From the NCBI GenBank assembly GCA_000182565.2, contig KQ257467.1: 52,768 nt of DNA; one strand, 5' to 3'. The DNA is from Spizellomyces punctatus DAOM BR117 (Eukaryota). Under the pieces are notes generated by a model, which did no database searches, was not told the origin of the DNA, and was given only the letters and a program-made list of their open reading frames with translations. Position 1 is the stretch's first letter. The number at the start of each line of letters is the position of its first letter. Shown piece by piece: positions 2,830 to 52,768 of this stretch. The position numbers were made by a program, and so were the translations under genes.

Positions 2830-5157
2830 CTAGAAGTTCTCCTTTCGGAAAATAAATCTACAATTGCTGGTTGCGCTCTTTTTCTTTGATAGATCCCACA
2901 GCTCTTCCGCTAGAATCTCCGGTCCGCAGAAGAAAACACCTACAGTTCCTCCTGGAAAGCTGGCTGCGGTCTGATCAAAGATTACGTTCCAATCAGGACG
3001 GCCCCAATATGCTTCGCGCGTCAAACCAGTCAGAATTGACGCGCTTGATTCATGCCGAACAAGTTGCAATCCTTTCCACAGCAATACCGAACGAATATCT
3101 CGTGACGAGTTTGCAGATGTTATGAACGTGTGAACTCGGAAAAAATTTGCAGCTGTATTTTGCTCAAGCTCCTTCAAGAGATGGGTGAACCAACTAGATA
3201 TGGGTTAACAAAATCAATACTCGGTGCCGGCGTGAGGATCAACTTTTGTTTCAAGAACAAACCTAAAAGCTCCACGAGATCGATTAATCCAGAAGAGATC
3301 AATCCGTCTTAGCCTTGATGATTGCTGGTTCCCTGTTTGTATCCGAATCTGGAGGTCTCGGAGAATCGACGCAAACGGTGTTACCCCAATACCAGTACCA
3401 ATTAACATGATGTTCTCAAAGTCTTCAAAGTGTTGGGCAGGAGCTCCGAAAGGACCATCCACGTTTATTTTTCTGAGAGCATCGGGATTCGTTTTTGCCA
3501 ATTTCGCAACAGCCCCGCTCCAGTCGCCATTATCTCGGATGTGAACCACGAGACTGTCCTCTAGTGGGCTGCTCGTTAACGTGTATGGATGCCATTGGAT
3601 GCTTGAAATGCTCGGGATGTTGATAAATACGTACTGTCCTGGGCGATACCTTCGGTGCGACTTCCGTGGAGTCAGCTTCAACTTGACTGTTTTCTCGGCT
3701 TGGGCTTTAATTTCAGTCGCATCATATTTGAGGTACGCGGCTCGGTATATTCGGAGAAGTCGTTCAATAAAGTACCACAATAGAGGAATGCTGAGGTACA
3801 TAAACATATGGGGAAACTGAATCCATTTCCAAATCCCGTGAATGAGCAAGGCCACAGAGAAGACGAGGAACGCATGGTGAGAATACCAGAATGTATTGAA
3901 ATGCTGGCGCCGAAATTGTGGGATCGAAAAGATCACCAAGATTAGGAGCGCAAGAGTCGCAATGAGCCCGGAGATTCCAGGCAGTGTTTCAATAATGAGC
4001 TCCGAATATGTCGGCAGAGTCGGAAACTGCTTTCCACTGACTACTGAATTCAATCCATTCAGATCATCCAAATTAGCAACTTTCACGTACGTGCTGCCCA
4101 AATGACACCCTATGTGACCAATGGCAGCCATGACGATAACATAGCCTACTATCTGATGGAACAAAATGGCATGATCGAAGGGAATGAGGCTTTCCAGCCA
4201 GGTACCGCGCGCGTACGTGAGCAGCGTCCGTGACATAGATAGGAAACAAAGTGGAACATTGAAATACAATATTCCCGCAAAGCCCTTAGCTGCCGCTGCA
4301 CCAATACCGAGTGCTTCTCTTTTCGCCGGCTTTTGGTATACGCTCATGAAATAGGCTATAAACATTGCGGCGTCCACGGCAGCGTACAAAACAAGGCATG
4401 ATATTTCCCGAGCATGTAACGACATGTAGATGCGTATTCTTCGCCACACTGTCCATCTGTCATCCTCTTCATCGTCTTCGTCCAAAAGAATTGATTTACT
4501 TCGTAGCAAGAAGTCAGCGGCCTTCTTATCTGCTTGGAGTGGATTCAGTGTGGCATCGCGGGTGTTTATCGAGTGCTTGAACTCATCGAAAGTAACACGA
4601 CCATTGCCCTTGATGTCCATGTGCTGCATAAGAGCGTCAGCAACAGCGTCCAGCTCTGTATCAGATAACTGCAGTGCATTGTCCAAGGCCGAGTGATGAA
4701 TTGTGGCTCGAAGCTCGTCACGTACAACGTACCCCGTTCCATCCAAGTCGATCATGTCAAAAGCAAGCTTTGCTTTCTCCTCCTCGTTTACATTCTCCGC
4801 ATTTGGGCTCAGAAGAGCAATACTAGTCAAAAGTCGCGCTACGTGAACCTCGTACCGTGGTTCCTTTGTCTTCTGAGTGTCAACGGCGTCCGATACCTCG
4901 GTGATGCTAAACAGCGCTTTTAAGGTATCCTTCACCTTTCCTGATTCTCGCTGAGTCAATTCAATCCCTGGCAGAACATCTGCCAGCTCTGACTGGGTCA
5001 AAATGATCACTTTCTCAACTGCTCTCTGGCTTTGCTCATCATTTGCATAGAAAATGTCTTTATACTCCTGAAAAAGCTCGTCGGTTTTGTCCCAGTCCAT
5101 GTACGAAAAGGCCTCAATAGCCCTCTTTAATCGCAAAGCATCCTGATTTTTCTTCAT
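2830..5157 (-). CDS. EF-hand-containing NADPH oxidase (NOX5/NoxC/RBOH-like)
   Basis: Two EF-hands (DLDGTGYVVRDE, DIKGNGRVTFDE). Ferric-reductase transmembrane domain with heme histidines (FHQIVG..IGH, YSHH..LIHG). FAD motif WHPYTLTS, NADPH motif GIGVTPFAS, C-terminal GVFFCGP..FRKENF. One intron at about 3180-3260. Confidence 0.92.
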
Positions 5158-5618: not shown

Positions 5619-8600
5619 ATGTCTGGTCGGCGCGAGACATCATCAGGCATAAAAAAGTCAAGACGAGCATCAGTTGCCGCAAATGCAGGCTCTATGCGAA
5701 GAGATGCATCGTCCGCAAGCGATACGGCTACACAACAAGCGGAGGAGACGGAGAGAGAACAAGTATTGGCGCCTGTCGAGACATCCACCGAAAAGATAGT
5801 TCCTGCAGAAAACAAAGAGTTCACAGAAAATGTTGAGGAAACACCCCTTGCCAGCTCGTCCGAAACCCCAGTTGCAGACCCCCTGGAGCTTGGAACTCCT
5901 CCGCCTTCTGGCGAGACTCTGCGACCGGAAGATGCGTCGGGGTCACACTTGGAGTCGGACGCAAGTATCCCAGCCCCACCCATTGCAAATGTGTCCGATC
6001 CTGTTTCCAATGTTAGAGAAAGATTACCTGCAGTAAAGGATCTGCCAGGAGCCGATGACAAAGCCCAGCACGATACTATGTACACAACAATGGAAATAGA
6101 GTACGACAATGCATGGAAAGAGGTAGCCGAGAACGATGAATTAAATCCATTCCGCATCGAGTACGAGAAAATGCACCGTGCAGTAATCCGCTCAAGGGAG
6201 CACATTGAAAAGCTTTTCGCCCAATATGAAACTTCTTATGATGAGTATCGGGTGAATCTGGCACAAGCCCAGGAGGCAAAGGAAGCTTCGGTTCAAGATC
6301 AGCAAACTATCAAAGTTTTACGGGCGCAGATTAAGCGGGCGGAGGAGATAGTGGAGTCCAGCAATAAAAGAGAGGAAGCGGCAAAGGAAGAGCTACGCCA
6401 GTTGAAGATGGACATATCCAATCTAAATGCCACTCTGAAACAAGGTGTAGGACTTAGCACGAGTCAGGAAAAGGCACTCCAAGAGCTTCTCCAGACCAAG
6501 GAGCAATCTACAAAAGAGCTTGATGAAGAGCTTGAAAAGATTGTACATCTGCGAAACATTATTGCGGATGTGTCCGAGAAGATTAAAACTGCTGACCAGC
6601 AAAAGCGCGACCTAGAGCGAGAGATATACGAATTGAGAGACAAAAGCGCCACAAAGAAAGCAGACATTGATGCAGAGCTCAGGAATAAGGAGCGTCTTGA
6701 ACGAGATTTGCGAGAACTGCGGGTGGTGGTAGCAGTCAAATCACAAGAAGTTCGCGGGAAGCAAGATTCCGTCAACAGAGCCACAGATGATATTTCCATT
6801 CTTGAATCCCAGATCAAGTCGCAAAAGAACTTGATGGAAAAGCTGTTAAAGGACCAAGAGAGTCTAACAATCCGGACTATAAAACTACAACAAGATGCCG
6901 ACTCACAAATGACGACCACTTCTCACCTGATTGAGGAAAACGAAGCATTAGCCAACGAACTCAAGACACGCGAGGCCGAGCTTCAAAAAAACACTTTTGA
7001 GGTGAAGAAAGTTGCTAGAATAAAGGACGCATTGAATAAGAAGATACAGGAGGTGGAGGAGCAGAAATTGGAAGCGGAACTGGAGCGTAAGGATATTCGC
7101 GGCGAGTGTGAGGACGCTCTTGCTCAAATCGAGCGCGCCAAAAAGAATATCGACCAACACAAAAAGGCCATTGACGATCTGACACGCGAACGGGATATCT
7201 TACAAGCCAACTTTCACAAGACGCAGACGGAACTACACAAGCATGGACAGATGTTGGTTCTCTGCAAACAAGCCCGCCACAACATTGAACTCGAACTGGC
7301 CAGATATGAGAGGGAAATCATTGATCTGCAAAAATCTGTGCAGCGGTTGGAAGCAGAGCGTGATGCTTATATTACAGAGTCTGTAGCCCTACAGGGTTCC
7401 TGCGTTGCGGGCATTCAACAGATCAAAGCTAAAGAAATCGAACTTTTTGACTACAAGAAGCGGACAGTACAAGCGGACACAAAACTAAAACATCAGCAAA
7501 ATTTGTACGAAGCGGTTCAGAGTGATCGCAACCTGCATAGCAAACATTTGATAGAAGCACAGAGCGAAATAACCGAAATGAAGCGCAAGTTGAAAATTAT
7601 GAACTTTCAGATCAACGGATTCAAGGAAGACATAAATGCTAAGAACCAAGCCTTGGCGGCAGAGGCGGCAGAACATGCAAAGTTGGAGAAGGATATTGAG
7701 ATTATCACAGAGGAAATCAATACGTTACAGCATCAGAATGAACTTGGCCAGGCTTATATTCGAATTCAGCAAGCCGAGTCCAGTCGCCTAAATCAATTCG
7801 TCAAAGATGCGGAAATGGAAAGATCGAGACAAGAGAACGCTCTAAAAATTCTCATAACTGAACGAGACAACCTCAGCAACCAGCTTATCCGGCAAAACGA
7901 GGAACTTGCAAAGGTGTACGATTCCATCAAGCTGCAGCAGTCGTCCTTGCTTCGAAGCGAGCTCCATTACCGCGACCGACTAAAATCTCTCAATCATCTG
8001 CGGAAAGAGATTCTCGAGCTTCGTCGTCAGAACGCTACTCTAAAATCAGAGTCGGCTAGCTTTAATGACATGAAGGACACTATTCACCGGTTGGACAACG
8101 ATCTGCTGCACGAGCAGACAAAGATAAAGGCATTGGAAGAACAGCTGAAGCACCCCATCAATGTCCATCGATGGCGAAAACTAGAAGGGCGAAATCCAAA
8201 AGCTTTTGACATGATTCAGCTCCTTCATACATTGCAGCGGAAACTGATTGCCAAGAGTAAAGAGGAGGCTGAGAAGGAGCAACTTATTCACAGCAAGGAA
8301 ACACTGTATTTGCACCTCAAATCACTTTTTGCTAAGCAAGTTGGACCTGAAGCACTGGAGCAAATTGCTGAGTATCGGCACATCCTCAAAGACAAAACAA
8401 TGCAGTACAAACATATGGGAACGGAGCTGAATATGTACCAAGCTCAATTGAGAGAGTACAAGTATTCGATTGCTCAGCTCAACAACGGAGTCAAGGCAAT
8501 CAGAGACCAGTTTATGCATACAAATCGGGGAGCTTTGTCGAGTCCAGCAGTCCGACTACGTTCAAAAGCGCGCTCCAAGCAACCAACACCGCCAATACCT

Positions 8601-8651
8601 CATGAACAAGCACCAATAGCTTCAGAACAGGAGGAAATGCAACCTACATAG
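5619..8651 (+). CDS. CFAP58: Cilia- and flagella-associated protein 58-like coiled-coil protein
   Basis: 1010-aa intronless coiled-coil ORF with CFAP58-type motifs QQNLYEAVQSDRNLHSKHLIEAQSEITEMKRKLKIM and NVHRWRKLEGRNPKAFDMIQLLHTLQRKLI. Confidence 0.85.
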   Translation: MSGRRETSSGIKKSRRASVAANAGSMRRDASSASDTATQQAEETEREQVLAPVETSTEKIVPAENKEFTENVEETPLASSSETPVADPLELGTPPPSGETLRPEDASGSHLESDASIPAPPIANVSDPVSNVRERLPAVKDLPGADDKAQHDTMYTTMEIEYDNAWKEVAENDELNPFRIEYEKMHRAVIRSREHIEKLFAQYETSYDEYRVNLAQAQEAKEASVQDQQTIKVLRAQIKRAEEIVESSNKREEAAKEELRQLKMDISNLNATLKQGVGLSTSQEKALQELLQTKEQSTKELDEELEKIVHLRNIIADVSEKIKTADQQKRDLEREIYELRDKSATKKADIDAELRNKERLERDLRELRVVVAVKSQEVRGKQDSVNRATDDISILESQIKSQKNLMEKLLKDQESLTIRTIKLQQDADSQMTTTSHLIEENEALANELKTREAELQKNTFEVKKVARIKDALNKKIQEVEEQKLEAELERKDIRGECEDALAQIERAKKNIDQHKKAIDDLTRERDILQANFHKTQTELHKHGQMLVLCKQARHNIELELARYEREIIDLQKSVQRLEAERDAYITESVALQGSCVAGIQQIKAKEIELFDYKKRTVQADTKLKHQQNLYEAVQSDRNLHSKHLIEAQSEITEMKRKLKIMNFQINGFKEDINAKNQALAAEAAEHAKLEKDIEIITEEINTLQHQNELGQAYIRIQQAESSRLNQFVKDAEMERSRQENALKILITERDNLSNQLIRQNEELAKVYDSIKLQQSSLLRSELHYRDRLKSLNHLRKEILELRRQNATLKSESASFNDMKDTIHRLDNDLLHEQTKIKALEEQLKHPINVHRWRKLEGRNPKAFDMIQLLHTLQRKLIAKSKEEAEKEQLIHSKETLYLHLKSLFAKQVGPEALEQIAEYRHILKDKTMQYKHMGTELNMYQAQLREYKYSIAQLNNGVKAIRDQFMHTNRGALSSPAVRLRSKARSKQPTPPIPHEQAPIASEQEEMQPT

Positions 8652-43376: not shown

Positions 43377-45656
43377 CTATTGAAACCGCAACACCCTTGT
43401 TGTTGGAGCGCCGGGGGACTTTACTCGCAACGATACAACCAACGGCAAGTGATCTGATGGGTGGTGCGCGTTGGGGAAACCCACAGTCCTCGAGATATAC
43501 TCTCTATCTACACTCGAAAGCAGTCCAGTCACACTCAAAGTGTTGGTCGAATACCATACATAATCGATGACACCCTTAAATTGGGGCGTGAAATTGGTGA
43601 ACTCTAGCTCTCCCGTATGGGAGTACGCAGATTTGAGCGCGAACTTGTGCTGCAGACCCTCTGATGTGTATGGACCGTATGTATACGTTCCAAAGTCCTC
43701 ATGGTCCTGAGGTACTCGACCGCTCGACAGGAACTCGTATACGCCCGAATCTGGCAGTGAGTTGAAATCTCCGCATATTAAAAGAGGTACCCGTGCAACA
43801 TCTTGCGAATTTCTTGCTGCGTCTTTTGGTGCATTCCGCGACCATGTGTTACCCAACCTCTCCAACTCTTCCATCAGCATCGCAGTTTGGACGAGCTTGA
43901 CGTCCTTGTACGATGGGTCCCAATGTAGATGTGCGTTGGCGGTCAATATACGGCCATGGGTCTCCTTGTTCTCCAACAGTGCCACAACTGCGATGTTGTC
44001 CTTTATCATCACTCTGTTGAACACGTCTTCCGCCTTCCGCAGCTCCGGCCTCTGCATTGCGAATTGTTGAAATTCGATGCAATGCTTCTCAACGAGGAAA
44101 AATCTAAAAAGATATCACCGATCAGAATCATTCCTCAGAAGATACTAGCGATTGTTAGATGCATACTTGTTGGCTTTCCAGAAAGTCGCACATCCGTCAA
44201 CTTGTCTTCGTTCGTACTCTGCCATCGTTCGCGCTCGTGACTTCGGGAAGAAGACACCTTCATAGCCGCCCAATTGCGATAATTGATCTCGGAAAAAATC
44301 TTCATACTGGTCCATTTGCATTTCCTGTATGGCAAAACCATCATCATAATTAGACAATATATAGCAAAAGCTCGCGTAAGCTGATAACACCAACCTGTAG
44401 GCACACGATGTCCGCACTATAGTTTAGAATATCTTGCAGGAGAAGATCTTTCCGGTAATCCCAGTTGAGAGCCCAAGACGGAGTGTAGGCATACGCTTGG
44501 GGAGTTGCGTACTTTTCACAAAGGATGTTGTAACACATGACAGTGAAGGTATCTACGATGCAATTGGAGAAGTCAATTCACAATTCCAGAGACTTGCAGG
44601 TTACTGCACGAACCTTTCGAGTCTGCTGTGTACTCATCTTCCAAGGGAATCCATTCACGATCAGCCGGAGGTGGACCAACTACAACGGAATTAATCATTC
44701 GTATGCTGCAGCTCGCGGAGTAATGAACTTCATCATTGATAGTTACCAGGGCACATCTCTCGCAGATAGGTGACGACCGCATTCGTCCCTTCCTTCTGAA
44801 TCATTGAACCCACTGGCTCATTGAGTGGATTGCCTTCCAACCCGAGAGTTTCGAGCTGAAAGAGTTGTCCCAGTTCCGGCGGAAGGAAAGTCAATTCATT
44901 GTCAAATAGTAATAGCTCCCGTAGGCTGACGAGCATGCCCAGTTCTGACGGTACTGACGATAGGCGATTTCCAGATAGATCCAGAACCACCAAGTTGGTC
45001 AGCTTTGCAATTTCGGGCGATAGTGAGGCCAACGCGTTGTGATTCAGATAGAGGGTTGTGAGAAATGTGTAGCCGAAAAGATTTCTGCTGATATTCTTCA
45101 TTTGCATTCCTCCCAAGTCGATAATGGTCCATTGCGACGCCTTGGCTGACGGGTCGACGGTACTGCCCACGCAGGAGGTATTGCCATTACTCTCTGAATT
45201 CGACATCCCGGTTCGGGCAGCAGCCGCAGCGACGCGTGCGTGATGATGTGGAGATGCAGCTTGCCTTGACAGTATGACGGAGTCCATCTGCTTTTGATGA
45301 TGCGGCCCAGCGACTTGGCCGCTGACACTCGCACCCACCGAGTTGATTGCTGGCACAGCTGTGGTCGCAGCGTGCGAAAGGTGCTGTTGATACGTCGGTA
45401 TCGCATGGTTGAGCTGTGGAGACTGCAATACGTGCCCAGGCAGTTTCTGCCCGAGATGGATGTGATTTGGATACCGATGTGGTATGGAGGAGTACATTTG
45501 GCCCTGGTTTCCATATGCACCTCCACCGTACGCTGGAGATGAGGGCGTTGGCGTTATTGTGCTGGTGTGAGCTGGAGATCCTGGAGTATTGTAAGGAAAG
45601 AATCCTTGCGCTCCCAGGGAGTATGAGTAAGGGTTTCGGTCCTCTTTATCTGCCAT
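43377..45656 (-). CDS. CCR4: CCR4-NOT deadenylase Ccr4 (LRR + EEP nuclease)
   Basis: LRR (LTTLYLNHNAL..LDLSGNRL), MCYNILCEKYATPQAYAYTPSWALNWDYRK, CGDFNSLPDSGVY, GVIDYVWYS, PSDHLPL. Confidence 0.95.
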
Positions 45657-46455: not shown

Positions 46456-49385
46456 ATGAAGTTAAACTACAAAGTGAGTGAACATAAAGATACCCCTCTT
46501 CTTCTTTTGTCGCGTATGATAACAGGTGTATTGACTTTCCCATTTTGTGATGTATAGTTTTCCAACCTGTGTGGGACGGTCTACAAGAGAGGGAATGTCA
46601 TTTTCACACCCGATGGGAACTCAGTCGTCAGCCCCGTAGGAAACCGGGTAACAGTTTTTGATCTCGTGAGGTACGTTAATAGTGGAGGAAGGAGGAAACT
46701 GGCACTGGTTCCGCCTAATATTAACGGTACGCATACTTTTCCTACAGCAATAAGTCCCACACACTGCCGTTTGAGAACAGAAAAGACATTGTCCGCCTCG
46801 CTCTGTCACCAAATGGCTCACTTTTGATTACAGTCGACGAAGACGGCCGGGCACTTTTGGTGAATTTCCAGCGACAAGTAGTACTTCACCACTTCAATTT
46901 CAAAACGCCCGTTCGCGATCTAGTGTTCAGCCCTGACGGTCGCTATCTAGCTGTTACTCACGAGAAACATGTACATGTCTGGCGGACACCCGGGTTTACT
47001 CTCGAGTTTGCTCCGTTTATCCTACATCGAAAATATCCCGGACACTACGATGATGTAGTCCACCTTTCTTGGTCGCCTGATTCACGATTTTTCCTTACTG
47101 GAAGTAAAGATATGACTGCAAGGCTGTATGCTGTAGATCCAATAGAAGGATTTCATGGGGCGGTCTTAGCCGGGCATCGTGATACTGTTGTCGGTGCGTG
47201 GTTCTCGAAAGATGTGAATACTGTATATACTGTGGGTAAAGATGGGGCCTTGTTTGAATGGAATATGAAGGAGGAAATGGAAGGGGAGGATGAGTCTGGA
47301 ATGAACGGGGAGGAGCCAGCAACAGCAAAGAAAAGGAAAGTGGGAGATGGGGAAAGAATCAGGGTGAAGAAATGGCGAACATCAGCACGACATTACTTCA
47401 ATCAAAACCACGCGAAGGTGGTAAGTGTAGCGTTCCATGCCGCCTCAAGTCTACTGGTAGTAGGCTTTACCTCTGGTATCTTTGGAATCTGGGAGCTGCC
47501 TGATTTCACAAACATCCACACACTGAGGTAGGCATATATGCCATGGAAATCAGTACCTCACCCACGCACTAATATCGATTGTCCCCAGTATATCCCAAAA
47601 GAAAATCACAGCTACGGCCATTAACTCATCTGGGGAATGGCTGGCATTTGGATCGTCTGCTCTTGGACAGCTTCTCGTGTGGGAGTGGCAGTCTGAGTCA
47701 TACGTTTTGAAGCAACAAGGGCATCACCATGAGATGAGCTGTTTGTCTTACTCGCAAGATGGACAATTTGTGATAACTGGAGGAGACGACGGGAAAGTGA
47801 AACTATGGAATACGCAGACTGGGTTCTGCTTTGTAACCTTCACGGAACATTCTGCCGGTGTCACGGCGGTCGAATTTGCAAAGCAAGGTCAAATAGTGTT
47901 TTCAGCCTCGTTGGATGGAACCGTACGAGCTTTCGACCTCATTAGATATCGGAACTTTCGGACATTCACGACGCCAACTCCTGTTCAATTTTCGTGCTTA
48001 GCGGTTGATCCGAGTGGAGAAGTCGTTTGTGCAGGGAGCTCTGATACATTTGAGATTTTTGTATGGTCAGTGCAAACTGGAAAGCTGCTGGATATTCTCA
48101 CAGGCCACGAAGGACCTGTGAGTCACCTCACCTTCTCACCTTCTGAGGGCATACTGGCCTCGGGCTCCTGGGATAAAACCGTCCGGATGTGGGATGTGTT
48201 TGGCAAAGATCGGGCGCAAGAAGCCATGGAACACCAAGCCGAGGTCATTTCCATTGCGTATCGTCCAGATGGAAAAGTCCTGGCTGCTTCAACATTAGAT
48301 GGTCAGGTTAGCCTCTGGAATGTGAATGAAGGGAAGCAGGTTGGCTCGATAGAAGGGCGAAAGCATATTTCCGGAGGTCGTAAAGCGGATGATCGCATGA
48401 CTGCTGCGAACAACTCGGCTGGAAAACACTTCACTTCCATATGCTTCACGGCGGACGGGACCGGACTAATCGCTGGAGGCAACTCAAAGTATGTGTGTAT
48501 ATATGACGTGCCAACCAAGGTGCTTCTGAAGCGATTCCAGATTTCCCAAAACCTGTCAATGGATGGTATGCAAGAGTTTCTAAATAGTAAGAACATGACG
48601 GAGGCTGGACCGAAGGACTTGATCGATGACACCGGGGACCTCAGCGACCTAGAAGATCGAATGGACACAAGTTTACCCGGTGTGATAAAGGGCGATGCCA
48701 GTCTGCGAAAGACGCGACCACTGGCGCGAACCAAAGGCGTTCGGTTTTCTCCTACTGGACGATCATGGGCTGCAGCTTCAACGGAGGGTCTTCTCATCTA
48801 TTTCCTCGATGAAACCCTCTTGTTTGATCCTTTCGATCTTGAACTTGACATCACGCCGGACGCGATCATGGAAGCATTGCGAGACAAGGAATATCTTCGA
48901 TCTTTAGTCATGAGTTTCAGGCTGGGTGAAAGGCCAATCATACAAAAAGTATATGATAACATTCCAGCAGATGAGATCATGCTGATAGCACGGGAGCTTC
49001 CAGTGAAGTACTTGGAGAGAATGCTGAAGTTTGTGATTACATATATGGAGGCAAGCCCGCGAATCCAGTTCAATCTCATGTGGGCCACAACGCTGTTAAA
49101 GTATCATGGCCGATATTTGAAAGACCACAGCGTTGAATTCGCGAGTGTCCTACGCGGGTTGCAAAAGGGGATGTCGAAAATGTATGAGGATCTCGGGAAA
49201 GTGTAAGTAACCTCCTATTGCACATGTGCAAAATGCCGATCGAGTCTGACTATTCGTTGTTTTAAAGTTGCAACGATAATACCTACACGATGGGATACCT
49301 ATTAAATGCTCACAAGCAAAAGCTAGCAGAAGGGCCCACCGAAGTCGTACAGATGGAGGAAGTCAGTATGGATATGGTAATATAG
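46456..49385 (+). CDS. PWP2: Periodic tryptophan protein 2 / Utp1 (90S pre-ribosome WD40)
   Basis: MKLNYK/FSNLCGTVYKRGNVIFTPDGNSVVSPVGNRV, WEWQSESYVLKQQGH, VRAFDLIRYRNFRTFT, FDPFDLELDITP. Confidence 0.95.
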
Positions 49386-49786: not shown

Positions 49787-50647
49787 TTATGATGCCAAAG
49801 TTCCAGTTTGATCGTCATCAGATTCGGCAACCTTCGGGCTTTGCCTTTTAATCTGATCCCAAAATCCTCCCAACAGCGGATCACCTTTGACAACGCTGGG
49901 ATCTACAAAGAAACCCCTCTTTTTTCCTCTAACATCTGGTACTGTTTCCCATACTTGCGTCACCCAGCCGGGTTTATAGCGAAGACGGGACAACGGGACC
50001 ACAGTCTCACGACGTGCACCCCAGAGAGTGCGGGTTTCGAATGCAAAGAGTTCCGCAAGGGAGTGATTTTTGCCTGCCCCTCCAGGCTGCTGTTGCGGTG
50101 GGTACCTATAGAGTTTGGTCACATAGTTTTTTGATAATACGTGTAGGACAATCCACGGTATGGCCGATGTTGCTCCCACTGTCATAAATTTGTTGTCATA
50201 CGGACCGTGAGATTCTGTTGTCATATCTCTTTTTTCTCATTATAGACTGCAGTTGCACTTACGCCAAGGAAGTAGTTGTGGGAGCGTTACAACACTCTTC
50301 TCGAGGATCCACGGCAAGCTTACAAGCGGGACCACAGTCATCGCTCCAGCAAACAGCCTGCAACGATGTATCCAGCTGTTGAGCGAGCCGGTGTATATCA
50401 GTGTTCTACCACCTTCCCCAGAGCTGATATTCCCAAAAAAGGTGTAGTCTCCAGAGGCTCCTAGGCGATCAGTGTTGTGGGAGCCATGCTGAGATTTGTG
50501 TATGACGGTCGCGGAAGACGGTGGTCGGGAGGAAGGTATGGGGCTTCGGGAGGCAGAGGAACTAGACCTTGCAGGTACCGCAAGATTGCACAGCTGAATA
50601 TGGACAACCCTCCGGCCGCATAGAAATCGCACGGCTACAGGGTGCAT
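49787..50647 (-). CDS. Putative mitochondrial membrane protein, TMEM70/TMEM186-like
   Basis: Presequence-like N-terminus, LIYTGSL followed by two hydrophobic helices, then KNYVTKLY..FETRTLWG..FFVDP. One intron at about 50180-50260. Confidence 0.55.
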
Positions 50648-50898
50648 TTCCAAAAGGACGTCCAAACTCGCCAGATCTGGAAAAGCCCTCACGGTTATCA
50701 TCCAGCAGTCACGTGCCTTGGTTGGACTGTGATATTATGGTGCGGAGCCGATGGGTATTGGCACTAGTACAAAGATTCCAACCAATTTAATCATAATTTT
50801 ACTCGATTTAGACTCATGAACTATGGTTTGATCCACAAAATCCTATATAAGTCATCGTCCATTTTCCCAGGCTTTCATCTTTTTCTACAGATATCATC

Positions 50899-52537
50899 AT
50901 GCCACCAAAGAAGAAGCAAAAGCTTGAAAAACTTGACAAACCCACTTTACATACCTGCAACAAGACTTCCTTTGCAAAAGCTTTCCTGCCAAACTATCAC
51001 CAATGGCTTTGAGATTACATCACCATCATCCATCAACTTGCTGATCATGCTTCCCATGCTCTCAAATTCTACATCCTATCTGCACCAACCTTTCCCACAG
51101 TAAATGAAGATACAATCGAAGCCATCCTGTATCTTCTCAACAAGGCGGAGGCTTGGCAACCAAGAACGGATGCAAAGAAGGTGATATGCAGATGCTTGTT
51201 GCCATATGTTCAACGGTACTGCCAAATTGTCAGCTTCTTTCACCCAAATCTATGAGGCAAGCAGCAGTCAATCAATTACCTGACAGTGAGTATGATGACA
51301 AACCTGAAGGTCAACATTCAAGAACATTTCATGATGATGCTGTGTAACGTCAATCGACCAGATTGCTCTAGTTGACATTTTTCTTGTGAATTGTTGGGCC
51401 CTGCGAGAGGGCTGTATAAAGACTTTGTTGTTAATACAAGATAAAGGGGACTATTGATAGTTCCTCGCGTTGCTAACTAGGCTAGTTGTTCTTCTAGTTT
51501 TTCCTTGCTTGCTGCCCTCCTTCCTGAGGGGTTTTGGAGCAGCGCTCTTTTTATGCTTGCTCCCTCCTTCAGCAGGGCGTTGGCCTGAGATTTCCCGCCT
51601 CCGCTGGTGCGGTCCCTCTTGCACCAATCGGAAGTGATTGGCGCTAGCAAATAAAGGGACAAATAATCTTCTAACTACGGGGCCGCCGCGGAACCGAACG
51701 ACTTTGACAGGTCATCAGCATGGCGGGGCTTACATAATCTAACTACTGTTACGTGCTGTGCCATACTTTGGCCATACATGGCTACATGATCACTATAGCT
51801 ATATATGGTGATGTGAGGGCAAGATGCGTCGCGAAAATCTAAGTTCACACGAAAGTGCAAATACTAAAGGACAGGTCTACCTTACAATGCTGCTCCGATA
51901 TATCAATCTGCGGCTTGATGTGAAGGGATGGAAAGGGCAACTGCCACCGAAAAGTGATGCACGAAAAGCTTTCTTTACTCAGCTACACTATTTAAAGTCA
52001 GTTTTTCTTTTTGATATCATGCCTGAGTCGCTGGATGACTTGACTGCTGAAGAGAGTGAGCTTCTAGAAGAGATCTGGACACTTAACCTGCCATTTCCTG
52101 ATCAAGACAAGCTGCTTGCCTACCTCATTGCCATTGACGTGATGTCCTTCTTTCCTGCATACTGTCGGTTGTCAAGCCTATATGAAAAGCATGGATTTCA
52201 ACGGTTCAGTGCCATACCTCTGCACCACTCGCTCATCCAAAGCCACATTCGCATCGACTCCAAAATCCTGTACCAGCATATCCTTTGCATCATGCAGCGA
52301 GAAGCAGAAGCCATAGAGAAGGTCGATTTATGGTTGCGTGTCTGTAATCTATGTACCAAAACTTTTCGGTCTCACTGTGATATGCAGTTTGAAGGCTCGA
52401 TCACAATGGATGGTACCTCGGTGTCTGTGTATTTGAAACACCCCAATGCCAACAAGTACGGAAAGCATGGAGTGAGAAAGTCAGCAAAGACCCTAGAAGC
52501 TGAGGTGAAGGCAGTATATGTGGAGAACAACTTACCT
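50899..52537 (+). pseudogene. Fanzor1 (SpuFz1-like RNA-guided endonuclease) pseudogene
   Basis: Translation from 50899 gives MPPKKKQKLEKLDKPTLHTCNKTSFAKAFLPN..*DYITIIHQLADHASHALKFYILS..QQSINYLTVSMMTNLKVNIQEHFMM. After the insertion it resumes MLLRYINLRLDVKG..RFSAIPL..FEGSITMDGTSVSVYLKHP..YVENNLP. This is collinear with SpuFz1 as recalled. In-frame TGA stops at 51010 and 51253. Confidence 0.9.
51343..51886. mobile_element. Solo-LTR-like insertion (544 bp) inside the Fanzor ORF
   Basis: Termini TGTAA...TTACA form a 5-bp inverted repeat (TG..CA). A direct repeat ATGCTG flanks it (51337-51342 and 51887-51892). Removing it restores the Fanzor reading frame. Confidence 0.8.
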
Positions 52538-52768
52538 TGTGACAGAATTCTTCTGTCAGTGCTATGGTTATACTGGTTAGATGTGGTTCCAAACTAGTGG
52601 TCACATGACTTTGCTGATGGTGTCAGCATTCATTTGACCAGAATTAGATAAATAAGCAGATTTAGCCATTTCTGGCTAAATTAGATGAGTATCCTGACAC
52701 ACTGGCATCTGCCCCTTTCAATCAAGTGGCACAGTGTATTTAGGATGACTTGTCTCACTTGTGATTGG
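52538..52768. mobile_element. Probable second LTR-type insertion truncating the Fanzor before RuvC
   Basis: Fanzor similarity ends abruptly after VENNLP, and unrelated sequence begins with TGTGACAG (LTR-like TG start). The other end lies outside the window. Confidence 0.5.

What the first reader, a model, noticed from the sequence alone, without database searches (positions are those of the whole stretch)
50738..52537. Fanzor1 locus: eukaryotic RNA-guided (OMEGA/TnpB-Cas12-like) endonuclease transposon copy
Seen: a reading frame from ATG 50899 (NLS-like MPPKKKQK) that runs collinear for about 360 codons once two TGA stops are read through and a 544-bp insertion is removed. The ORF track shows only the second half, fused to foreign sequence. 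Knowledge (recalled): the peptide closely follows the N-terminal/REC/WED part of Spizellomyces punctatus SpuFz1, up to just before the RuvC-I motif (VVIDPNKRD in SpuFz1). Inference: this is an inactivated, diverged copy of an RNA-guided DNA endonuclease element. Its RuvC half and 3' omegaRNA should lie beyond the window.
Basis: partly seen in the sequence, partly recalled or inferred. Interest (0 to 1): 0.92.

Follow-up and report, generated by a model that had tools for sequence, protein, structure and literature searches.

The report
Dead partial Fanzor1 transposon copy
This is a broken, truncated copy of the Spu-1 transposon that carries the RNA-guided nuclease Fanzor1, a family already catalogued in the chytrid fungus Spizellomyces punctatus, so it is ordinary.

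Summary
Window 50899-51342 and 51887-52537 together encode, in one collinear frame of 362 codons, the N-terminal REC/WED part of a Fanzor1 protein. The two pieces match the solved SpuFz1 chain (PDB 8gkh) at E 9.7e-75 and 1.6e-105. Identity is 79% to SpuFz1 and 86% to the closest annotated S. punctatus paralogue.

The copy is dead:
- It has two in-frame TGA stops.
- A 544-bp insertion with TG..CA ends and a 6-bp target duplication interrupts it.
- It breaks at 52537/52538, 12 codons before catalytic D383, where an LTR-like repeat begins.
- No RuvC, zinc finger, right inverted repeat or omegaRNA lies in the window.

Most well-supported changes specific to this copy are CpG>TpG/CpA, the mark of decay under cytosine methylation. 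At the first stop codon, 0 of 39 RNA reads carry this copy's letter.

Two papers already describe this family in this genome. They report 42 Fz loci (19 full-length, the rest partial) and 134 ghost loci, and some Fz loci hold Ty3/Gypsy insertions inside the gene. I rate it already known and of low interest.

The parts
50736..50737 (+). Flanking dinucleotide TA just outside the left inverted repeat. Paralogous copies have CA here, the first half of the CATA target-adjacent motif.
   Evidence: Loose ends of reads from other copies end in ...CATA before 50740. Saito et al. report a conserved CA upstream of the 5' IR and a CATA TAM (passages). The window reads TATG at 50736-50739.
50738..50767 (+). 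Left-end inverted repeat (about 30 nt) of the Spu-1 element
   Evidence: DNA depth jumps from about 40-65 to about 300 per direction here, and read clipping clusters at 50736/50740. The 30-mer occurs once in the window and has no inverted partner at up to 3 mismatches. The 30-nt length is taken from PMC10432273; no right end was available to test it.
50768..50898 (+). Non-coding leader between the left repeat and the ATG; it contains a TATATAAG box
   Evidence: Sequence. This bin has the highest multi-copy DNA depth of the stretch (300/318 for 50764-50859) and RNA reads in both directions, at 80% likeness.
50899..51342 (+). Fanzor1 coding remnant, part 1 (codons 1-148, equivalent to SpuFz1 residues 2 to about 155). 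In-frame TGA at 51010-51012 and at 51253-51255.
   Evidence: phmmer against PDB 8gkh gives E 9.7e-75. tblastn. Paralogue reads have C and T at 51010 and 51011 (CTA for the window's TGA) and C at 51253 (CGA).
51337..51342 (.). Left copy of the 6-bp target-site duplication ATGCTG. The right copy is at 51887-51892.
   Evidence: Sequence. The joint in paralogue contigs shows 'both = 6'.
51343..51886 (.). 544-bp insertion with TGTAA...TTACA termini, most likely a solo LTR
   Evidence: TG..CA ends and a 6-bp duplication. Exact-match X1 contigs cross both of its junctions with the Fanzor sequence (51122-51372, 51781-51918); contigs of other copies skip it. No other copy in the window. Depth is at single-copy level or lower.
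51887..52537 (+). Fanzor1 coding remnant, part 2 (equivalent to SpuFz1 residues 154-371, REC/WED). It ends 12 codons before catalytic D383.
   Evidence: phmmer against PDB 8gkh gives E 1.6e-105. Alignment and residue mapping.
52538..52768 (+). Start of a second, unrelated repeat (begins TGTGACAG), probably the LTR of a retrotransposon. It runs to the window end.
   Evidence: An X1 contig matches 52538-52768 exactly. Before 52538 it carries 152 other letters ending in the purine tract AAAGTGGGGGAG. Its word depth is 20.3, against 3-4 for the exact-match contigs over the insertion. Reads pile up beginning or ending at 52537.
51824..52597 (+). Chimeric 257-aa ORF (insertion + Fanzor part 2 + repeat). 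It is an accident of the junctions, not a gene.
   Evidence: ORF list. The exact sequence is not in the protein collection. RNA depth is 6 or less here, and the informative reads carry paralogue letters.

Best explanation
The locus is a decayed, 5'-partial copy of the Spu-1 DNA transposon of Spizellomyces, the element that encodes the omegaRNA-guided nuclease Fanzor1 (SpuFz1).

Shown:
- It retains the left inverted repeat, the leader and the first 362 codons, which cover the N-terminus and the REC/WED part.
- Two nonsense mutations have hit the gene. One of them is CGA>TGA at a CpG.
- A 544-bp element with TG..CA ends and a 6-bp target duplication has inserted into the gene.
- A second repeat is joined to it 12 codons before the first RuvC catalytic residue.

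Inferred:
- Both foreign pieces are LTR-retrotransposon sequences.
- The copy was silenced by CpG cytosine methylation and is eroding by 5mC deamination.
- It encodes no active nuclease and does nothing for the cell. It cannot move, or guide cleavage, with the parts seen here.

Intact paralogues work as published. The protein binds an omegaRNA transcribed from the right end and cuts DNA next to a CATA motif.
For: Homology to Fanzor1:
- The two coding pieces match the solved SpuFz1 chain 8gkh at E 9.7e-75 and 1.6e-105. A second solved Fanzor1, from Parasitella (9cf0), matches at 2.9e-12.
- P0006 matches 8gkh over residues 2-638 at 1493 bits and carries D383, N385, E541 and D606, as published.
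- A protein search returned 22 relatives at E<=0.001 among 1324 candidates; 16 of the 22 are named S. punctatus DAOM BR117.
- Identity of the read-through copy to those 16 is 75.5-86.0%.

What is missing from the window:
- tblastn gives no match to Fanzor residues beyond about 380 at E<0.09.
- There is no inverted partner of the left repeat.

Insertion and boundaries: contigs of other copies skip 51337-51886 with 6 shared letters, and read clipping falls at 50736/50740 and at 52537/52538.

Copy-specific stops:
- In raw DNA reads (X20), 10 of 172 reads carry the window's G at 51011 and 18 of 112 carry its T at 51253.
- In RNA reads (X19), 0 of 39 carry the G at 51011.

Mode of decay:
- 35 of the 40 best-supported differences listed (of 353 in all) have A or T in the window where other copies have G or C.
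- 29 of those 35 sit in a former CpG.
- CpG observed/expected is 0.45 in the copy, against 0.92 in the rest of the window.

Published context (passages read):
- Spu-1 is about 2.1 kb with TIRs and a single ORF. One paper counts 17 full-length copies, the other 42 Fz loci (19 full-length), and 11 Fz loci hold further genes, including Ty3/Gypsy inserted in the Fz gene.
- 5mC is confined to transposons in Spizellomyces (PMC12695648).
Against: - No whole genome was held, so I could not see the sequence to the right of the window or the DNA of the other copies. The comparison with paralogues rests on reads and contigs laid at 80% likeness.
- No listed contig bridges 52537/52538. The junction with the second repeat is therefore supported only by the window itself and by continuous short-read depth.
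- The 544-bp insertion has no second copy in the window, and its read depth is at or below single-copy level. That is unusual for an LTR family, so 'solo LTR' rests on its ends and its duplication alone.
- The CpG count uses the 40 rows the tool printed out of 353.
Confidence: 0.93

Rival explanations
1. The break at 52537/52538 is an assembly artefact. Two repeats, a Fanzor copy and an LTR, were joined wrongly near a contig end, and the real locus may hold a longer or even complete Fanzor gene.
For: Both sides of the junction are repeated sequences. No contig among those listed spans it. The window ends only 231 bp later. An X1 contig shows the same repeat with a different left flank.
Against: Short-read DNA depth in X20 does not collapse in the bin that contains the junction (about 91 and 90 for the two read directions), and only 10 of 47 and 18 of 50 reads stop there. 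Ty3/Gypsy insertions inside Fz genes are reported for this genome. The two stops and the 544-bp insertion would kill the gene in any case, and X1 contigs with exact matches cross both insertion junctions.
Confidence: 0.06
2. The gene is still functional: the 544 bp is an intron and the TGA codons are read through or recoded.
For: The frame is otherwise free of frameshifts over 362 codons.
Against: The 544 bp ends in ...TTACA rather than AG, and it carries a 6-bp target duplication. No RNA read shows a joint across it, although only about 6 in 100 of run X19 was read. The paralogues are single ORFs with sense codons (CTA, CGA) at both TGA places. The catalytic half is absent from the window.
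Confidence: 0.01
3. The 257-aa ORF 51824-52597 is an exapted, nuclease-less REC/WED protein, for example a decoy that binds omegaRNA or DNA.
For: An open frame of 257 codons exists and covers most of the REC/WED part.
Against: It starts in the insertion and ends in the flanking repeat. This exact protein is not in the 15-billion-sequence collection. RNA depth there is 6 or less, and at 51981 and 51987 all 10 RNA reads carry paralogue letters. Conserved arginines have decayed to histidine, as in LRRS > LHHS.
Confidence: 0.02

Closest known systems
Spu-1 / SPu-1 element encoding SpuFz1 (Fanzor1) of Spizellomyces punctatus DAOM BR117 (Bao & Jurka 2013, PMC3627910; Saito et al. 2023, PMC10432273; PDB 8gkh)
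   Same: It shares the left inverted repeat position, the leader and the N-terminal NLS-like start. The REC/WED sequence is collinear at 79% identity to SpuFz1 and 86% to paralogue P0003.
   Different: It has two stop codons and a 544-bp insertion, and it is truncated before RuvC D383. The window holds no zinc finger, right repeat or omegaRNA. The flank reads TA-TG where intact copies read CA-TA.
Partial Fz loci and Fz loci with Ty3/Gypsy inserted in the gene, reported for the same genome (Saito et al. 2023; passages read; Supplementary Data 1 and 2 not seen)
   Same: It is a partial Fz gene interrupted by TG..CA elements with LTR hallmarks.
   Different: I could not check whether this exact locus is in their list, because supplements are closed.
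Ghost Spu-1 elements (omegaRNA-only loci; Saito et al. 2023)
   Same: Both are non-autonomous relics of the same family that keep a family end.
   Different: Ghost loci keep both repeats and the omegaRNA but have no ORF. This locus keeps the left repeat and half the ORF, and no omegaRNA is visible.
Parasitella parasitica Fanzor1 (PDB 9cf0) and bacterial TnpB of IS200/IS605
   Same: Distant homology of the REC/WED part to PpFz1 (E 2.9e-12). The same general RNA-guided RuvC nuclease lineage, according to the literature.
   Different: The relation is much more distant. The TnpB-like catalytic core that defines the lineage is not present in this fragment.

Membership tests
Fanzor1 (Spu-1 family), by descent | Significant collinear sequence similarity to characterised Fanzor1 proteins | tested here: met
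   E 9.7e-75 and 1.6e-105 to 8gkh. 75.5-86.0% identity to the 16 annotated S. punctatus paralogues.
Fanzor1 (Spu-1 family), as an active nuclease | RuvC catalytic residues (D383, E541, D606 in SpuFz1) | tested here: not met
   Homology ends at the equivalent of residue 371. No tblastn match to later residues anywhere in the window at E<0.09.
Fanzor1 (Spu-1 family), as an active nuclease | C4 zinc finger (OrfB_Zn_ribbon) in the C-terminal half | tested here: not met
   Absent from the window. The only weak match upstream (50258-50497, minus strand, E 0.099) lacks the cysteines.
Fanzor1 (Spu-1 family), as an active nuclease | Uninterrupted open reading frame | tested here: not met
   Two TGA stops, a 544-bp insertion and a truncating junction.
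Spu-1 transposon | Terminal inverted repeats at both ends, with CA/CATA next to the left end | tested here: inconclusive
   The left boundary is supported by read clipping and a depth step at 50736-50740. The flank reads TA rather than CA. No right repeat in the window.
Spu-1 transposon | omegaRNA scaffold (about 75 nt) at the right end | not testable with these tools
   The right end is not in the window and no genome was held. Rfam found nothing in the window.
Solo LTR (the 544-bp insertion) | TG..CA termini with a short inverted repeat, and a 4-6 bp target duplication | tested here: met
   TGTAA...TTACA ends and the 6-bp duplication ATGCTG. The empty site is seen in paralogue contigs.
Solo LTR (the 544-bp insertion) | Further copies, or a full-length element with matching LTRs | tested here: not met
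   No copy in the window. Read depth at 80% likeness is at or below single-copy level. No look-alike in earlier scan notes. The genome itself could not be searched.
LTR retrotransposon (repeat from 52538) | LTR begins with TG and, at the 3' LTR, is preceded by a polypurine tract | tested here: met
   The repeat starts TGTGACAG. Another contig has AAAGTGGGGGAG immediately before the same start. No internal genes were seen.

The most novel reading that the evidence does not exclude
If the rest of the element survives beyond the inserted LTR sequence, its right end could still be transcribed into an omegaRNA. Fanzor proteins from intact paralogues could load that RNA in trans, as published for ghost loci. 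A 'dead' gene copy would then still contribute a guide to the family's targeting repertoire. Nothing in the window tests this.
Probability: 0.1. Interest if true: 0.25.

Novelty: already known. Interest (0 to 1): 0.08.

Why it matters
It matters little. The family, its copy number, its partial and retrotransposon-interrupted copies and its mechanism are already published for this organism. The locus is useful only as an annotation: a Fanzor1 pseudogene with nested retrotransposon pieces. It is also a small, clean example of CpG-deamination decay of a methylated transposon in a chytrid. It should not be annotated as a gene, and the 257-aa ORF is spurious.

Tried and rejected
- **Pfam.** The scan of the two coding pieces gave nothing significant (best E 0.084). 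Three full-length paralogues gave no family either, so this Pfam copy does not recognise the family.
- **Whole genome.** None is held. Paralogue DNA, the right end and the sequence beyond the window could not be examined.
- **Upstream remnant.** A weak tblastn match at 50258-50497 (minus strand) to Fanzor residues 485-566 (E 0.099 in the window) was inspected. It is a serine- and arginine-rich chance alignment without the zinc-finger cysteines, and DNA depth there is at single-copy level, so I rejected it.
- **Repeats in the window.** Self-BLAST of 50400-52768 against the window gave only one 21-bp chance match. No second copy or inverted copy of the 30-nt left repeat was found. The repeat finder gave only short chance pairs.
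- **Rfam.** No family matched in the whole window.
- **Earlier scan notes.** There were none for this genome and none that resemble either inserted sequence. Notes on Fanzor in other genomes do not bear on this locus.
- **Sequencing runs.** No RNA holder was listed for the stretch.
- **Exact look-up.** The chimeric 257-aa ORF is not in the collection.

Full report
**1. The observation**

The sequence at 50738-52537 is as described. From the ATG at 50899 the frame reads MPPKKKQK..., with TGA at 51010-12 and at 51253-55. The frame is lost after 51342 and resumes at 51887 in a frame shifted by one base. The mechanical ORF list shows only a 257-aa ORF, 51824-52597. That ORF begins in the intervening sequence and ends in sequence unrelated to the rest.

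**2. What it is related to**

A phmmer search of the two pieces against all PDB chains hits the MBP-fused Spizellomyces punctatus Fanzor1 chain 8gkh_P. The first piece matches chain residues 396-549 at E 9.7e-75. The second matches residues 548-771 at E 1.6e-105. The next hit, Parasitella parasitica Fanzor1 (9cf0), scores 2.9e-12 for the second piece.

A search of the 5.8-billion-cluster protein collection, restricted to longer proteins, returned 22 relatives at E<=0.001 among 1324 candidates. Sixteen of the 22 are named as S. punctatus DAOM BR117 proteins. One of them, P0006 (638 aa), matches 8gkh over residues 2-638 at 1493 bits. It carries D383, N385, E541 and D606, the residues the structure paper names as metal ligands. 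I therefore treat P0006 as SpuFz1.

Pfam gave nothing for the pieces or for three full-length paralogues.

**3. Collinearity and divergence**

tblastn with five full-length relatives gives exactly two strong matches in the window, 50899-51342 and 51878-52546. They overlap by a few residues in the query. I read the two parts through in a script, with X at the stops and with the 544 bp and one duplication copy left out. The result is 362 codons with no frameshift. Identity is 86.0% to P0003, 83.1% to P0004, 79.2% to SpuFz1 (P0006), and 75.5-86.0% across the 16 S. punctatus paralogues. The published mean among SpuFz1 proteins is about 82%.

Homology ends at the equivalent of SpuFz1 P371, in YVENNLP. 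That is 12 residues before D383, in VVVIDPNKRD.

**4. Anatomy of the damage**

(a) *Stops.* Reads from other copies have C and T at 51010 and 51011 (CTA for the window's TGA) and C at 51253 (CGA). In raw DNA reads (X20), 10 of 172 reads carry the window's G at 51011 and 18 of 112 carry its T at 51253. That fits one copy among many.

(b) *Insertion.* 51343-51886 (544 bp) begins TGTAA and ends TTACA. It is flanked by ATGCTG on both sides.
- Contigs of other copies in X1 (1 contig) and X8 (2 contigs) skip from 51336 to 51887, with 6 letters fitting either side.
- X1 contigs with 0 mismatches cross both junctions of the insertion (51122-51372 and 51781-51918).
- The ends and the duplication are the hallmarks of a solo LTR. 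However, no second copy was found in the window, and read depth over it is 7-17 per direction against 19-63 in the upstream flank. The family assignment therefore rests on the ends and the duplication alone.

(c) *Truncating junction.* From 52538 a different sequence starts with TGTGACAG.
- An X1 contig matches 52538-52768 exactly. It has 152 other letters before 52538, and these end in AAAGTGGGGGAG, a purine tract of the kind that precedes a 3' LTR.
- Its word depth is 20.3, against 3-4 for the exact-match contigs over the insertion.
- X20 reads pile up beginning or ending at 52537.
- I read this as the LTR of a retrotransposon inserted in, or joined to, the Fanzor copy. No listed contig bridges the junction, so an assembly join cannot be fully excluded.

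**5. Left end**

In X20, DNA depth steps from about 40-65 per direction to about 300 in the bin 50764-50859. Reads of other copies are clipped at 50736 and 50740. Their foreign flanks end in ...CATA (X19, X20) or ...GTGAAA (X8, X19).

Saito et al. describe 30-nt inverted repeats with a conserved CA upstream of the left one, and a CATA TAM. Bao and Jurka describe 33-bp TIRs with putative TA duplications.

The window reads TA-TG-GTGCGG at 50736-50745. The 30-mer from 50738 occurs once in the window and has no inverted partner at up to 3 mismatches.

**6. What is missing**

No match to Fanzor residues beyond about 380 exists anywhere in the 52.8-kb window at E<0.09. The one weak match just upstream (E 0.099) is a chance alignment. 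Rfam finds nothing. The RuvC domain, the zinc finger, the right repeat and the omegaRNA are all absent from the window. No genome was held, so their presence further to the right is untested.

**7. How the copy decayed**

One search printed the 40 best-supported single-letter differences between the window and the reads of other copies, out of 353 in all. In 35 of the 40 the window has T where the others have C (20 places) or A where the others have G (15 places). In 16 of the 20 T places the next base is G. In 13 of the 15 A places the previous base is C. So 29 of 35 are CpG>TpG or CpG>CpA.

CpG observed/expected is 0.45 in the copy, with TpG at 1.53 and CpA at 1.31. In the other 50.7 kb of the window CpG observed/expected is 0.92. 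This is the signature of 5-methylcytosine deamination.

A 2025 survey states that in Spizellomyces 5mC is confined to transposons (PMC12695648, passages). The second stop (CGA>TGA) and the LRRS>LHHS change are of this type.

**8. Expression**

Run X19 holds RNA raw reads; about 6 in 100 of it was read, at 80% likeness. It covers the 5' 400 bp of the element family well. At diagnostic places the reads carry paralogue letters:
- 39 of 39 at 51011
- 71 of 72 at 51045
- 25 of 25 at 51146
- 11 of 11 at 51228

No RNA read joins across the insertion. So there is no sign that this copy is expressed.

**9. Source organism**

A 1010-aa ORF of the window (5619-8648, a CFAP58 family protein) is in the public collection on a 526,679-bp contig. 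It shares a 90% cluster with a protein of Spizellomyces sp. 'palustris'. Together with the 16 S. punctatus paralogues, this points to S. punctatus or a very close relative. This is an inference.

**10. Comparison with what is known, and verdict**

Bao and Jurka (2013) discovered the prototype Fanzor in this very species. They describe SPu-1 as about 2,100 bp long, with 17 full-length copies, 9 of them with intact ORFs. Saito et al. (2023) counted 42 loci with full-length (19) or partial Fz genes and 134 ghost loci. They noted 11 Fz loci that hold further genes, including Ty3/Gypsy inserted in the Fz gene.

The present locus is one more such partial, retrotransposon-interrupted copy. It is probably already in their supplementary list, which I could not open. 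By descent it belongs to the Spu-1/Fanzor1 family. As a nuclease it fails every functional criterion that can be tested in the window.

Novelty is nil, and I rate interest at 0.08.

Noticed in passing
window 50738-52537 compared with reads of other copies: Changes specific to this copy are overwhelmingly CpG>TpG/CpA (29 of the 35 best-supported transitions). CpG observed/expected is 0.45, against 0.92 in the rest of the window. This fits 5mC-driven decay of a silenced transposon.
   Followed up: partly
window 50668-51150: RNA reads of the element family (X19, 80% likeness) pile up on the first roughly 400 bp. Depth falls from about 200 to about 60, then to under 8 beyond 51150, while DNA depth stays high. 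At the left end reads lie in both directions (59.7 and 105.5 for first mate on +). This could reflect short 5' transcripts or transcripts of ghost elements that share the left end.
   Followed up: no
window 50179-50262: A 4,007-letter contig of run X8 matches the single-copy flank exactly but skips 84 bp here (joint 50178>50263). This is a possible indel difference between strains or assemblies.
   Followed up: no
window 51340-51819: ChIP-DNA read depth over the 544-bp insertion (7-17 per direction) is lower than over the single-copy flank (19-63). Run X8 has essentially no contig on it (word depth 1.2 in the first bin, 0 in the other four). This may be ChIP bias or a strain polymorphism of the insertion.
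   Followed up: no
window 3217-5157 (-), 5619-8648 (+), 44736-45656 (-), 46824-49203 (+), 43380-44057 (-): The rest of the window holds ordinary eukaryotic genes: an EF-hand NADPH oxidase/ferric reductase, a CFAP58 flagellar coiled-coil protein, an LRR protein, and a WD40 protein with a Utp12 domain. There is also a 226-aa ORF with an Exo_endo_phos domain that could be a cellular gene or a non-LTR retrotransposon endonuclease.
   Followed up: no
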